A stretch of 64,000 bases of DNA from the human T2T-CHM13v2.0 reference genome, Homo sapiens. Positions 16,560 to 20,492 of the stretch are shown here, one piece after another. A program made the translations under genes and the position numbers. Position 1 is the stretch's first letter, and the number at the start of each line of letters is the position of its first letter. The stretch lies in NCBI RefSeq assembly GCF_009914755.1, contig NC_060939.1; one strand, written 5' to 3'. The notes beneath the pieces are model-generated. The model was given only the letters and a program-made list of their open reading frames with translations, was not told the origin of the DNA and made no database searches.

Positions 16560-19500
16560 CTTTGTTTATTTCTTCTTCTTTTTCTTTTCTTCTTCTTCTT
16601 CTTTTCTTCTCTTCTTCTTCTTTTCTTCTCTTCTTCTTCTTTCTTCTTTCCTCTTTTTCTTTCTTCTTTCCTCCTCTTTCTTCTTCCTCTTTCTTCTTTC
16701 TTTTTCTTCTTCCTTTTTTCTTTTCCTCTTTTCTTTTTTTTCTTTCTTCTTCCCTTTCTTTTCTTTTCTCTTTTTTCTTCTTTCTTCTTCCTCTTTTCTT
16801 CTTCTTCTTCCTCTTCCTTCTTCCTGTTTTCTTCTTCCTCTTCCCTCTTCTTCTTTCTTCTCTTCTTTCTTTTCTTCTGCTTTCTTTTTCTTTTTTTTCT
16901 TTCTTCTTCCTCTTCTTCCTTTTCTTCTTTCTTCTTTCTTCTTGTTCCTTATTCTTCTTCTCTTCTTTTCTTCTTCTATCTTCTTTCCTTCTATCTTCTT
17001 TTTCTTTCTTTCCTTTCTTCTTCCTCTTCTTCCTTATTCTTTTCTTTTTCTTCGTTCCTTTCTTTTCTTTTTCTTTCCTTTTCTTTCCTCCTTCTTCCTC
17101 TTCTTCCTTCTTTCCTTTTCTTCTTCTTTCCTTTCTTCTTCCTTCTTTCTTTCCTCTTTTCTTCTTTCTTCCTCTTCTTCATCCTTCTTATTCTTTCTTC
17201 TTCTTTCTTCTTCCTCTTCTTCTTTCTTCTTTCCTTTTCTTTTCTCTTCGTCCTCTTGTTCTTTCCTCTTCTTCCTTCTTTTCTTCTTCTTCTTTCCTTC
17301 TGCTCTTCTTTCTTCTTCCTTCTTATTCTTCTTTCTTTTCTTTCTTCTTCCATCTTCTATCTTCTTTTTCTTCTTCTTTCCTCTTCTATCTTCTTCTTAG
17401 TTCTTCCTTTCTTCTTCCTTCTTCTTTCTTCCTCTTCTTCCTTCTTTTCTTCTTCTTTCTTTTTCTTCTTCTTCCTTATTCTTCTTCCTCTTTCTTCATC
17501 TTTTTCTTTCTTCTTTCCTTCTACTTTTTCTTCTTCTTCTTTCCTCTTTCTTCTTCTTCCTTCTCCTCCTTTCTTCTTCTTATTCTTCTCCTTCTTCCTT
17601 CTCCTTCTTTTTCTTCTTCCTTCTCCTTCCTCTCCTCCTCCTTCGTTCTTTTTCTTTCTTCCTTCTTCCTTCTCCTTCTTCTTCTTAGTTCTTCCTCCTT
17701 CTTCTTTCTTCTTCCTCTTTCCTTTTCTTCTTCCTCCTTCTTCTTCTTCTCCTTAGTTCTTTCTTCTCCTCCTCCTTTCTTCTTCTTAGTTCTTCTCCTT
17801 CTTCCTTCTCCTTCTTCTTCCTTCGTCACCGTCTTCTCCTTCTTCTTACTTTCTTCTTCCTTCTCCTTCCTTCGTCTTCTTCTCCTTCTCCTCCTCCTTC
17901 CTTCTCCTTCGTTCTTCTTCTCCTTTTCTTCTTCTTCCTTCGTCTTCTTCTTCCTCCTCTCCTTCTTCGTCTTTTCTTTCTTCTTCTCCTTCTTTCTTCT
18001 TCCTTCTCCTCCTCCTTCTTCCCCTTCTTCCTTCTTCTTCTTCCTCTCCTTTTTCTTCTTAGTTCTTCTCCTTTCTTCTTTCTTCTTCTCCTTCTTCCTC
18101 CTTCTTTCCTCTTCTCCTCCTCCTCCTTTCTTTTCTTCTTCCTTCTCCTTCTTTTCTTCTCCTTCTCCTCCTTCTTCCTCCTCCTTCTTCCTTTCTTCTC
18201 CTTGTCTCTTCTCCTTCTTCTTCCTCTTTTCTTCTCTTTCTTCTTCTCCTTCTTCCTTCTCCTTCCTTTTCTTCTCCTTCTTCTTAGTTCTTCTTCCTTC
18301 TCTTTCTTCCTCTTTTCTTCTTTTCTTCTTGTCTCTTCTTCTCTCCTTCTTCTCCTTCTTAGTTCTTCTTTCTTCTCCTTGTTCTTCTCCTCCTTCTTCC
18401 TTTCTTCTTTCCTCTTTCTTTTTTCTTCCTCTTTCCTTCTTTCTTCTTCTTCCTTCTTATACTTTCTTTTCTTTCTTCCGCTTTCTACTTTCTTCTTCCT
18501 TTTTTCTTCCTTTTTCTCCTTCTTTCCTTCTTCTTTTCTTCTTTTTCTTCTTCCTCTTCTTATTCTTTCTTCTTCTTTCTTGTTCCTTATTCTTCTTTCT
18601 TCTTTCCTCCTCTTTCTTCTTCTTAGTTCTTCCTCTTCTTTCCTTCTTCCTTCTTTCTTCTTCTTTTACTTTTTTCTTTCTTCTTTCCTTCTTATTCTTC
18701 CTCTCCTTCTTCTTAGTTCTTCTTTCTTCTCCTTCTTTTCCTTTCTTCTTAGTTCTCCTTTTCTTCTCCTCCTCCTCCCTTCTTCTTCCTCCTCCTTCTT
18801 CCTTTTCTTCTTTCTTCTCTCCTTCTTCTCCTTCTTCCTCTTCCTTCTCCTTCTTCTTTAGTTCTTCCTCCTCTTCCTTCTCCTTCCTTCTTCTCCTCTC
18901 CTTCTTCCTTCTCCTTTTCTTCTTCCTTCTCCTTCTTTCTTCCTCCTTCTTCTTAGTTCTTCTTCTTCCTTCTCCTTTTCTTCTTTCTTCTCTCCTTCTT
19001 CTTCTCCTTCTTCTTAGTTCTTCTTAGTTCTTCTTCTTCTTCCTTCTTTCTCCTTCTTCTTCCTCTTCCTTCTCCTTTTCTTTCTCCTTCTTCCTTTTCC
19101 TCTTCTCCTTCTTTTCTTCTCCTTCTCCCTTCTTCTTTCTTCTTCTCCTTGTTCTTCTTCTTCTCCTCCTCCTTCTTTCCTCTTTTCTTCGTTCTTCTTC
19201 CTCTTCCCTCTTTTCTTTCTTTTCTTCTGCTTTCTTCTTCCTTTTTTTCTTCTTCCTTATTCTTTTCTTCTTTCCTCTTTTCTTCTTTCCTCTTTTTTCT
19301 TCTTCCTCTTTCTTCTTCGTTCTTCTTTCTTCTTCCTCTTTTCTTTCTTCCCTCTTTCTTCTCTTTTTCTTTTTTCTTTTCTTTCTTCCTCTTCTTCTAT
19401 TCTTTTTTTCTTCTTTCTTCCTCTTTCTATCTTCTTCCTTTCTTTCCTTTCTTCTTCCTTCTTTCCTCTTCTTTTCTTTCTTCTTCCTCTTCTTCTTTTC

Positions 19501-20492
19501 TCCTTCTTTCTTCTTCCTCTTCTTTCTCCTCCCTCTTTTCTTCTTCCTTTCTTTTCTCCTTTCTTCTTCCTCTTTCTTCTTGTTCCTTATTATTTTCTTC
19601 TTTCTTTTCTTCTTCTTCTCCTTCTTTCTTGTTCCTTATTTTCTTCTTCTTTCTTCTTCCTCTCCTTCGTCTTCTTAGTTCTTTCTTCTTCTCCTTCTTT
19701 TCCTTTCTTCTTCCTTCTTAGTTCTCCTTTTCTTCTCCTTCTCCTTCTTCTCTTCCTTCTTAGTTCTTCTTCCTCCTCTCCTTCTTCTCTTCTTCTTCTC
19801 CTTCTTCTTCCTTTTCTTCTTCTCCTTTCTTCTTCCTTCCTCTTCTTCCTCCTCTCCTCCTTCGTTCGTCTTCTTCTCCTTCTTCTTCTTCCCTCTTCTC
19901 CTTCCTCTTTTTCTTCTTCCTTCTCCTTCTTCTTCCTTCTTCTCCTCTTTCTTCTCCTTCTTCCTCCTTCTCCTTCTTTTCTTCTTCCTTCTCCTTGTTC
20001 TCCTTCTTCCTTATTCTTCCTTCTTCTCCTTCTTCCTCCTCCTTCCTCTTTTCTTCTTCCTTTTCTTCTTCTCCTTCTTTCTTCTTGTCTCTTCTTCTCT
20101 CCTTCTCCTTGTTCTTCTCCTTCTTCTTCTCCTTCTCCTCCTCCTCCTTCTTCTTCCTTCTCCTTCTTCTTTTTTGTTCTTCTTTCTTCTTCTCCTTCTT
20201 CCTTCTCCTTAGTTGTTCTTCTTCCTTGTTCTTCTCCTTCTTTTTGTTGTTCTTTCTTCTTCCTTCTTCTTCTTTCTTCTCCTTCTTTTCTTCTTCCTTC
20301 TTCTCCTCCTCCTTCTTCCTTCTTCTCTTGTCTCTTCTCTCTCCTTCTTCTCCTTCTTCTTCTTGTCTCTTCTTCTCTCTCCTTCTTCTTCTCCTTGTTC
20401 TTCTCCTGCTTCTCCTCTTCCTCTTTCCTTCTTCTTCCACTTCTTCTTCTTCCTCTTCTTCTTCTTTCTTCTTCTTCTTTTCTCTTTTTTTT
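16560..20492. repeat. ~3.9-kb complex polypyrimidine/polypurine simple repeat, (TTC/TCC/TTTC)n.(GAA)n-like
   Basis: The + strand is almost entirely C/T, with sparse recurring interruptions (ttagtt, ttgttcc, ttattc, ctatc, ttcgt). Confidence 0.98.

What the first reader, a model, noticed from the sequence alone, without database searches (positions are those of the whole stretch)
16560..20492. 3.9-kb TTC.GAA-type tract grown from an Alu tail inside the ANKDD1A 3' region
Seen: about 3,930 nt of nearly purine-free + strand, continuous with the T-tail of an antisense AluSc-like element. Established: Alu A-rich tracts seed GAA repeats (as in FXN intron 1), and long R.Y mirror tracts form H-DNA and R-loops that impede transcription and replication. 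Inference: although heavily interrupted, its length rivals pathogenic GAA expansions. It is probably a length-polymorphic, primate-specific element that affects ANKDD1A elongation and 3'-end choice and is poorly resolved by short reads.
Basis: partly seen in the sequence, partly recalled or inferred. Interest (0 to 1): 0.7.

Follow-up and report, generated by a model that had tools for sequence, protein, structure and literature searches.

The report
Decayed 3.9-kb pyrimidine tract beside Alu
A 3.9-kb stretch of almost pure T and C in the last intron of ANKDD1A is real and probably grew from the tail of a neighbouring Alu, but it is an old, heavily interrupted repeat of a known kind rather than a Friedreich-ataxia-like expansion.

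Summary
Window 16560-20492 (3,933 nt) is 97.2% pyrimidine on the + strand and is the only such tract in 64 kb. It runs without a break into the T8 tail of a 5'-truncated antisense Alu.

It is not FXN-like:
- The longest perfect (TTC)n is 5 units, and TRF gives 70% matches with 14% indels.
- The strand ANKDD1A transcribes from is the purine strand. A review describes blockage when the purine strand is non-template.
- Mirror (H-DNA) motifs are many but short: 45 regions, arms up to 16 nt. That is what the composition alone predicts.

The tract grew partly by internal duplication. One interruption-bearing 17-mer occurs 8 times in the 3.1-Gb genome, all in this tract.

It is not unique. Of 20 look-alike loci fetched, one has a longer tract (6.2 kb) and another holds two adjacent tracts (4.6 + 1.2 kb).

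An Alu-tail origin is likely, since chance adjacency is below 1%, but it is unproven because no target-site duplication was found.

The closest analogue is the PKD1 intron-21 polypyrimidine tract. Polymorphism and primate specificity could not be tested. It is a new member of a known kind and of modest interest.

The parts
16560..20492 (+). Degenerate TTC/TCC/TTTC polypyrimidine tract. The pyrimidine strand is the + strand, which is the ANKDD1A sense strand. 3,933 nt, 97.2% C+T.
   Evidence: Base counts and tract caller; skew profile; TRF period 3, 70% matches
16569..16825 (+). Longest purine-free run (257 nt)
16560..16572 (+). Left boundary CTTTGTTTATTTC. On the minus strand it reads as an A-rich, interrupted stretch that contains AATAAA. 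It resembles the distal end of a decayed A-tail (inference).
   Evidence: Sequence; TTTATT at 16565
20485..20492 (-). Residual Alu A-tail (T8 on the + strand), contiguous with the tract
20493..20720 (-). Alu body, sense on the minus strand, about 228 nt. It lacks roughly the first 50 nt of a full element; that estimate rests on recall of Alu length.
   Evidence: Matches 9 other window Alus at 80-89% identity; Metazoa_SRP sub-threshold match on the minus strand, 20491-20637; 7.4% divergence (3.6% non-CpG) from the majority consensus of 10 window copies
16560..18400 (+). Tentative macro-unit 1: a T-rich block followed by a C-rich block carrying CTTAGTT interruptions
   Evidence: C fraction 0.29-0.34, then 0.37-0.42. 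Marker order is a, b+, d, e. The runs test gives only P=0.07.
18400..19200 (+). Tentative macro-unit 2 (marker order a, b+, e)
   Evidence: recurring marker k-mers
19200..20492 (+). Tentative macro-unit 3 (marker order c, a, a, b+, d, e, with a further sub-duplication at an offset of about 279 nt)
15276..22522 (+). ANKDD1A last intron (7,247 nt). The tract makes up 54% of it.
   Evidence: Hub annotation

Best explanation
This is an old, mutationally decayed polypurine.polypyrimidine low-complexity tract. It most likely began as a GAA-type microsatellite in the A-tail of an Alu that inserted, sense on the minus strand, into the last intron of ANKDD1A. It then grew to about 3.9 kb by slippage and by repeated internal duplication of blocks that already carried interruptions. 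T-to-C transitions (TTC to TCC) and about 90 purine interruptions have since broken it up. It is now a cluster of many short H-DNA-capable mirror motifs, like the PKD1 intron-21 tract, and not one long pure repeat. Because the purine strand is the template for ANKDD1A, the nascent RNA is U/C-rich and forms weak hybrids. I therefore expect little FXN-type R-loop or triplex blockage of ANKDD1A, little large-scale repeat instability, and mostly neutral behaviour. Shown here: composition, decay, internal duplication, Alu contiguity, strand orientation and motif sizes. Inferred: the tail origin, present-day stability and the lack of a strong effect on transcription.
For: Composition and decay: 97.2% pyrimidine; the longest (TTC)n is 5 units; TRF gives 70% matches and 14% indels. 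Internal duplication: purine-containing 16-mer pairs number 200, against a Markov control mean of 34 and maximum of 118. CTTCTTCTTAGTTCTTC occurs 8 times in the genome and all 8 are in the tract, while the reversed control occurs 3 times elsewhere. The duplications look old: none of the 32 off-diagonal self-alignments of >=100 nt reaches 90% identity. Alu link: direct contiguity with the T8 tail, and chance adjacency of about 0.6-0.8%. The same architecture is seen at L012 (a 6.2-kb tract running into a T21 tail and an antisense Alu) and at L018 (a sense Alu tail running into pure (GAA)20+). From the literature, over 60% of GAA repeats of >=8 units lie in Alu tails, and L1 endonuclease only fortuitously hits microsatellites (PMC3812793, passages). 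Orientation: blockage occurs when the purine strand is non-template, and homopurine RNA hybrids are stronger (PMC11667243, passages). Motif size: 45 merged perfect mirror regions with a maximum arm of 16 nt; imperfect arms reach 30 nt (63 nt in total). Both figures equal the Markov expectation.
Against: No target-site duplication was found. The best local alignment of the flanks scores 7, against a null mean of 7.2, and there is no exact match of >=8 nt. The tail origin is therefore unproven. Only 2 of 20 comparator tracts are tail-continuous with an Alu, and 16 of 20 have no Alu within 40 nt, so long degenerate tracts need not come from Alus. The same review reports that an H-y triplex reduced RNA yield in the reverse orientation too. 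It also reports that the PKD1 tract-containing intron is abnormally spliced, so an effect on ANKDD1A is not excluded. The three-macro-unit reading is only suggestive (runs test P=0.07). Stability across humans was not measured.
Confidence: 0.62

Rival explanations
1. One reading: the tract behaves like an FXN-type GAA.TTC expansion. It would be length-polymorphic, form H-DNA and R-loops, and impede ANKDD1A elongation and alter 3'-end choice.
For: At about 1,311 triplet equivalents it is as long as large FRDA alleles by length alone. H-motif density is about 1 per 87 nt, against 1 per 25 kb genome-wide (PMC11879447). It occupies 54% of the last intron. One study found reduced RNA yield in the reverse orientation as well.
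Against: The longest pure run is 5 units, against thresholds of 34 and above 66. Interruptions stabilise repeat length. The purine strand is the template. There are no recent internal duplicates. No AATAAA or ATTAAA lies on the + strand within the tract. The annotation lists no alternative exons or ends there.
Confidence: 0.12
2. Reverse origin: an R.Y tract already existed, and the Alu later integrated at its T-rich right edge, with the tract's T-run acting as the TPRT primer.
For: No TSD lies to the left of the tract. 16 of 20 comparator tracts have no adjacent Alu, so such tracts arise without one. L001 shows an Alu landing beside a tract in the 'wrong' polarity.
Against: This model predicts a pyrimidine-rich TSD copy to the right of the Alu, and none is there beyond the 7-nt CTTCCCC. 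The review states that L1 endonuclease has only a weak TTAAAA preference and hits microsatellites fortuitously. The left boundary TTTGTTTATTT looks like a decayed distal A-tail (inference).
Confidence: 0.22
3. RNA-level function: in the pre-mRNA the tract is a 3.9-kb U/C array that recruits many copies of PTBP1 or similar proteins. This would slow or regulate removal of the terminal intron (PNCTR-like multivalency; PKD1-like inefficient splicing).
For: There are 1,383 YUCUYY/YYUCUY instances, 467 of them non-overlapping, in 3.9 kb. That is about 350 per kb, against about 6 per kb in the rest of the window. PNCTR has 2,178 instances, 565 non-overlapping, in more than 10 kb (PMC6224606, passages). 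The review reports abnormal splicing of the PKD1 tract-containing intron.
Against: There are no binding or expression data. Introns are short-lived. The motif density follows from the composition alone. The search ANKDD1A + PTBP1 returned 2 papers whose titles and abstract starts concern differential gene expression, not this tract; neither was opened.
Confidence: 0.1
4. Orientation-specific barrier. For minus-strand transcription, such as read-through from the convergent SPG21 gene whose 3' end lies 7,950 nt away, the purine strand is non-template and the RNA is GAA-rich. The tract would then act as a pause or termination backstop.
For: Strand geometry from the annotation. The review's strand bias favours blockage in this direction. 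An AATAAA lies on the minus strand at 16565-16570, just beyond the tract.
Against: This is purely geometric. The motifs are short and interrupted. A single hexamer is expected by chance. No transcription data are available.
Confidence: 0.05

Closest known systems
PKD1 intron-21 polypyrimidine tract (PyRE), 2.5 kb
   Same: Both are kb-scale intronic tracts that are almost entirely pyrimidine, and both consist of many short mirror-repeat H-motifs rather than one pure repeat. [quoted passage not shown] This tract has 45 merged regions with arms >=10 nt. I recall, without having checked, that the PKD1 tract is also pyrimidine-rich on the sense strand.
   Different: This tract is longer (3.9 kb) and T-rich (61% T, 36% C). 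It has no G4 motif on the purine strand, whereas PKD1 segments can form G4 as well as triplex. It abuts an Alu tail. No in-vitro or in-vivo structure data exist for it.
FXN intron-1 (GAA)n expansion
   Same: Both have a GAA.TTC unit, are Alu-associated and intronic, and are of comparable length.
   Different: FXN arises in the Alu's central A-rich linker, is pure or nearly pure, and has GAA on the sense strand. Here the repeat is at the Alu tail, the longest pure run is 5 units, and TTC is on the sense strand.
Alu poly(A)-tail-born A-rich microsatellites, e.g. the RFC1 (AAGGG)n repeat in an AluSx3 tail
   Same: The repeat is contiguous with the Alu 3' tail and has the matching polarity. In-genome examples are L018 and L012.
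   Different: It is unusually long and decayed, and a TSD could not be shown.
PNCTR, a short-tandem-repeat-rich PTBP1-binding RNA
   Same: Its density of YUCUYY/YYUCUY motifs is comparable or higher.
   Different: PNCTR is a stable Pol I lncRNA that localises to a nuclear body. This tract is an intron segment of a Pol II gene, and no binding data exist for it.

Membership tests
Alu-tail-derived GAA.TTC microsatellite | Repeat directly continuous with the Alu 3' A-tail, with purines on the Alu-sense strand | tested here: met
   T8 tail at 20485-20492 lies between the tract and the Alu body. Alu sense is on the minus strand.
Alu-tail-derived GAA.TTC microsatellite | A target-site duplication brackets Alu plus repeat, which would prove the repeat lies inside the insertion | tested here: inconclusive
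   There is no exact match of >=8 nt, and the local alignment score of 7 equals the null mean of 7.2. The Alu is 5'-truncated, so the right-hand copy may be lost. The rival origin also predicts a TSD that is not seen.
Alu-tail-derived GAA.TTC microsatellite | Orthologous site in a lineage older than the Alu lacks both Alu and repeat | not testable with these tools
   No primate genomes are held. No empty-site paralogue exists: the left flank is unique and the right flank has only 4 weak hits.
FXN-type unstable or pathogenic GAA expansion | Long uninterrupted (GAA)n: 34 units or more in carriers, more than 66 in affected people | tested here: not met
   The longest perfect run is 5 units, at 3 places. 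Thresholds are from the review's table.
FXN-type unstable or pathogenic GAA expansion | Purine (GAA) strand is non-template, so the RNA is GAA-rich | tested here: not met
   The + strand, which is the sense strand, is pyrimidine-rich (annotation). The strand bias is described.
FXN-type unstable or pathogenic GAA expansion | Large length polymorphism or instability | not testable with these tools
   Only one human assembly is held.
PKD1-type polypyrimidine tract / H-DNA motif cluster | kb-scale tract of about 97% pyrimidine on one strand, within an intron | tested here: met
PKD1-type polypyrimidine tract / H-DNA motif cluster | Multiple R.Y mirror repeats with arms >=10 nt and a short spacer | tested here: met
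   132 raw motifs merge into 45 regions covering 36% of the tract. I allowed spacers <=8, whereas the T2T census uses <8. The census's per-motif filter of AT below 80% was not applied.
PKD1-type polypyrimidine tract / H-DNA motif cluster | Demonstrated triplex formation or polymerase arrest | not testable with these tools
   This needs S1/P1 probing, 2D gels or primer extension.
PNCTR-like multivalent PTBP1-binding RNA | High density of YUCUYY/YYUCUY motifs | tested here: met
   1,383 instances, 467 non-overlapping, against PNCTR's 2,178 and 565
PNCTR-like multivalent PTBP1-binding RNA | PTBP1 binding and accumulation of the RNA | not testable with these tools
   No CLIP or expression data are available.

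The most novel reading that the evidence does not exclude
The tract is not inert. As 54% of the terminal intron, it would act as a PNCTR-density array of PTBP1/hnRNP sites that makes removal of ANKDD1A's last intron sensitive to PTBP1 dose. In addition or instead, its purine-non-template orientation for minus-strand transcription would make it a one-way barrier to read-through from the convergent SPG21 gene.
Probability: 0.08. Interest if true: 0.55.

Novelty: new member of a known kind. Interest (0 to 1): 0.25.

Why it matters
At 3.9 kb this tract is longer than the much-studied 2.5-kb PKD1 tract, and it sits inside a gene. That makes it a convenient natural test case for how cells replicate, transcribe and splice across a long but impure R.Y tract in the pyrimidine-sense orientation. 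It also preserves a late stage in the life cycle of an Alu-tail microsatellite: birth, growth by block duplication, then decay. It does not carry the features that make GAA expansions pathogenic, namely purity and GAA on the sense strand. It should not be flagged as an FXN-like risk locus on length alone.

Tried and rejected
1. TSD search, exact and mismatch-tolerant: nothing above chance. CAGGTATGG (16530) against CAGGGATGG (20720) abuts the Alu end on the right, but on the left it lies about 22 nt outside the tract. I rejected it.
2. Empty-site paralogue approach: the left flank is unique and the right flank has only 4 weak hits of 55-58 bits. No reference for the pre-insertion site was found.
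3. A regular higher-order period: self-BLAST offsets are scattered. The runs test on marker order gives P=0.07, which is suggestive only.
4. Selection for mirror symmetry: perfect and imperfect mirror counts equal the Markov-3 expectation, so there is no excess.
5. Coding potential: 25 stop-free frames of >=100 aa, including one of 835 aa, overlap the tract. This is a mechanical result of purine or pyrimidine poverty, not a gene.
6. Cryptic exons: there are 18 AG dinucleotides, all in the context yttAG|tt. Only 9 have any upstream A at -45 to -15, GT contexts are poor, and there is no + strand poly(A) signal in the tract. Nothing is annotated there.
7. G4 or i-motif potential: 0 four-run motifs and only 9 runs of C>=3.
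The genome-wide rank of this tract therefore rests on 20 fetched loci out of 2,488 first-look candidates, of which 40 were scored.
9. Literature on this locus: ANKDD1A+GAA (10 papers), +tandem repeat (4), +SPG21+intron (0) and +PTBP1 (2). Judged from the listings only, none concerns the tract. Bacolla 2006 (PMC1464109) and Lea 2018 (PMC6171280) are not held. Supplementary tables of the T2T H-DNA census (PMC11879447) were not opened and might list this gene.
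Full report
**1. Observation**

Window 16560-20492 (3,933 nt) contains T 2412, C 1412, G 59 and A 50, which is 2.8% purine. Every 200-nt window from 16600 to 20399 has GC skew of -0.80 to -1.00 and AT skew of -0.92 to -1.00. The flanks show no such bias. A caller requiring at least 88% pyrimidine in 50-nt windows gives one zone, 16549-20500. It finds no other R.Y tract of 150 nt or more, of either polarity, in the 64-kb window. Tandem Repeats Finder reports one array at 16570-20483 with period 3, consensus TTC, 1273 copies, 70% matches and 14% indels.

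At its right end the tract reads ...TTCTC followed by T8 (20485-20492). It then continues directly into an Alu body in antisense orientation (20493-20720). That segment matches 9 other Alu copies in the window at 80-89% identity. It also gives sub-threshold Rfam matches to Metazoa_SRP on the minus strand (39 bits, gathering 70) and to mir-1268 (minus strand) and mir-3135 (plus strand), which I recall as Alu-derived families. The element is about 228 nt long, so it lacks roughly its first 50 nt. That figure, and the 'AluSc-like' label, rest on recall and were not tested. By the hub's annotation the tract lies in the last intron of ANKDD1A (15276-22522). It makes up 54% of that intron and ends 2,031 nt before the last exon.

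**2. Anatomy**

The tract is degenerate. TTC counted in all frames accounts for 63% of its length. There are 102 runs of (TTC)3 or more, and the longest perfect run is 5 units, found at three places. The longest purine-free run is 257 nt (16569-16825).

There are 91 purine interruptions, and many recur together with their context. CTTAGTT occurs 17 times and CTTGTTCCTTATT 4 times. Pairs of identical 16-mers containing at least 2 purines number 200. Locally matched order-3 Markov simulations give a mean of 34 and a maximum of 118. The 17-mer CTTCTTCTTAGTTCTTC occurs 8 times in the whole 3.1-Gb assembly, and all 8 are inside this tract. Its reversed control occurs 3 times elsewhere. The tract therefore grew in part by duplicating blocks that already carried interruptions.

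Those duplications look old. Of 32 off-diagonal self-alignments, none of 100 nt or more reaches 90% identity. The best are 254 nt at 81% and 153 nt at 84%.

T-rich blocks (C fraction about 0.30) alternate with C-rich blocks (about 0.41). The rare markers appear in a similar order three times, which suggests three macro-units. A runs test on that order gives only P=0.07, so I treat this as descriptive.

**3. Origin**

Contiguity with the Alu tail in the matching polarity is unlikely by chance. There are 6 antisense Alu hits in 64 kb, so an Alu tail start within 40 nt of the tract's right edge is expected about 0.6-0.8% of the time.

[quoted passage not shown] About 2% of GAA repeats lie in the central A-rich linker, and FXN is one of those. 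The review also says L1 endonuclease has only a weak TTAAAA preference and lands in microsatellites fortuitously (PMC3812793, passages).

The same architecture occurs elsewhere in this genome. L012 has a 6.2-kb tract followed by a T21 tail and an antisense Alu. L018 has a sense Alu whose tail runs into pure (GAA)20+. The window itself has a (GATA)12 repeat abutting the tail side of another antisense Alu.

Against this, I found no target-site duplication bracketing tract plus Alu. There is no exact match of 8 nt or more, and the local alignment score of 7 matches the null mean of 7.2. No empty-site paralogue exists. The rival origin is an Alu landing at the edge of a pre-existing tract. That model predicts a pyrimidine-rich duplicate to the right of the Alu, which is also absent. 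The Alu's 5' truncation may have removed the right-hand copy. I put the tail origin at about 65%.

The Alu differs by 7.4% (3.6% outside CpG) from the majority consensus of the 10 window copies, which is mid-range among them. With a recalled neutral rate this suggests an age of tens of millions of years. This is an inference only.

**4. Expected behaviour**

*DNA structure.* Using the criteria of the T2T H-DNA census (arms of 10 nt or more, short spacer, at least 90% R.Y; PMC11879447, passages), the tract has 132 perfect mirror motifs. These merge into 45 regions covering 36% of it. That is roughly one per 87 nt, against one per 25 kb genome-wide.

The motifs are short, however. The longest perfect arm is 16 nt, and the longest imperfect arm (at least 90% identity) is 30 nt, or 63 nt in total. 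Both counts and sizes match Markov-3 simulations, so the symmetry is a by-product of composition. [quoted passage not shown] There is no G4 motif on the purine strand.

The closest analogue is the PKD1 intron-21 tract. [quoted passage not shown] It explains the bias by stronger hybrids for homopurine RNA. For ANKDD1A the purine strand is the template and the RNA is U/C-rich, which is the opposite of FXN. This, together with the interruptions, argues against FXN-type blockage. The carrier threshold is 34 pure repeats, the disease threshold is above 66, and interruptions stabilise repeat length.

Two points count against my reading. The same review cites reduced RNA yield through an H-y triplex in the reverse orientation. 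It also cites abnormal splicing of the PKD1 tract-containing intron.

*RNA.* The tract carries 1,383 YUCUYY/YYUCUY instances, 467 of them non-overlapping. That is about 350 per kb, against about 6 per kb in the rest of the window. PNCTR has 2,178 instances, 565 non-overlapping, in more than 10 kb (PMC6224606, passages). This permits a PTBP1-platform reading, but it follows from composition and no binding data were available.

All 18 AG dinucleotides sit in the context yttAG|tt. Branch-point adenines, usable GT sites and + strand poly(A) signals are scarce or absent, and nothing is annotated there.

For minus-strand transcription, such as read-through from the convergent SPG21 gene 7,950 nt away, the geometry is the blocking one. 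This is geometry only.

**5. How unusual it is**

Searching the assembly with the tract gave 2,488 first-look candidates, of which 40 were scored. I fetched the 20 best loci and ran the same caller on them. Their tracts range from 435 to 6,189 nt. L012 (chrX, PAR1; 6,189 nt, 96.9% pyrimidine) is longer, and so is L004 (chr6; 4,640 + 1,212 nt, 92% purine). L003 has 2,725 nt. The ANKDD1A tract therefore ranks third among the 21 loci measured.

Of the 20 comparators:
- 2 are tail-continuous with an Alu.
- 1 joins an Alu at its central linker, as in FXN.
- 1 abuts an Alu in the wrong polarity.
- 16 have no Alu within 40 nt.

Four literature searches on ANKDD1A found nothing about this tract, judged from the listings only. 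The main text of the T2T H-DNA paper does not mention the gene. Its supplementary tables were not opened.

**6. Verdict**

Polymorphism, primate specificity and isoform effects remain untested. The tract is a new member of a known kind: long decayed R.Y tracts and Alu-tail-born microsatellites, with the PKD1 tract as its closest analogue. Interest is modest at 0.25. The most novel reading not excluded is a PTBP1-dose-sensitive terminal intron and/or a one-way barrier to SPG21 read-through, at a probability of about 8%.

Noticed in passing
L012:3214-9402 (G000 C23, about 0.36 Mb, PAR1): A 6,189-nt tract at 96.9% pyrimidine runs into a T21 tail and an antisense Alu. It has the same architecture as the ANKDD1A tract but is larger. 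Its longest (TTC)n is 2 units.
   Followed up: partly
L004:3048-7687 and 7824-9035 (G000 C6, about 65.44 Mb): Two adjacent purine-rich GAA-type tracts of 4,640 and 1,212 nt, about 92% purine. The second joins an Alu at what I recognise from recall as its central A-rich linker (...GGAGAAAATTAGCCGGGCG...), the junction type the literature describes for FXN.
   Followed up: partly
L018:4536-5262 (G000 C2, about 125.14 Mb): A sense Alu whose A-tail continues directly into pure (GAA)20+. It looks like a younger, still pure stage of the same process.
   Followed up: partly
window 5678-5725 with 5740-5961: A (GATA)12 repeat with 97% matches abuts the tail side of another antisense Alu. It is a second Alu-tail-associated microsatellite in the same window.
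   Followed up: partly
window 2347-2511: An 80-nt unit repeated 2.1 times at 96% identity, with no indels. It is a young local tandem duplication of non-Alu sequence.
   Followed up: no
window 5716-6324 and 51494-52101: TRF periods of 304 and 318 nt at 77-83% matches. These are pairs of Alu elements lying head to tail.
   Followed up: no
window 20747-20851: The right flank just beyond the Alu has 4 weak matches elsewhere in the genome (55-58 bits, 74-83% identity). It is probably a fragment of an old interspersed repeat. The left flank, 16200-16559, is single-copy.
   Followed up: partly
window 16565-16570 (minus strand): AATAAA on the minus strand lies exactly at the far edge of the tract, inside the tail-like TTTGTTTATTT boundary. 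Its significance is unknown.
   Followed up: no
window 10889-10932: A perfect (AT)22 dinucleotide repeat.
   Followed up: no
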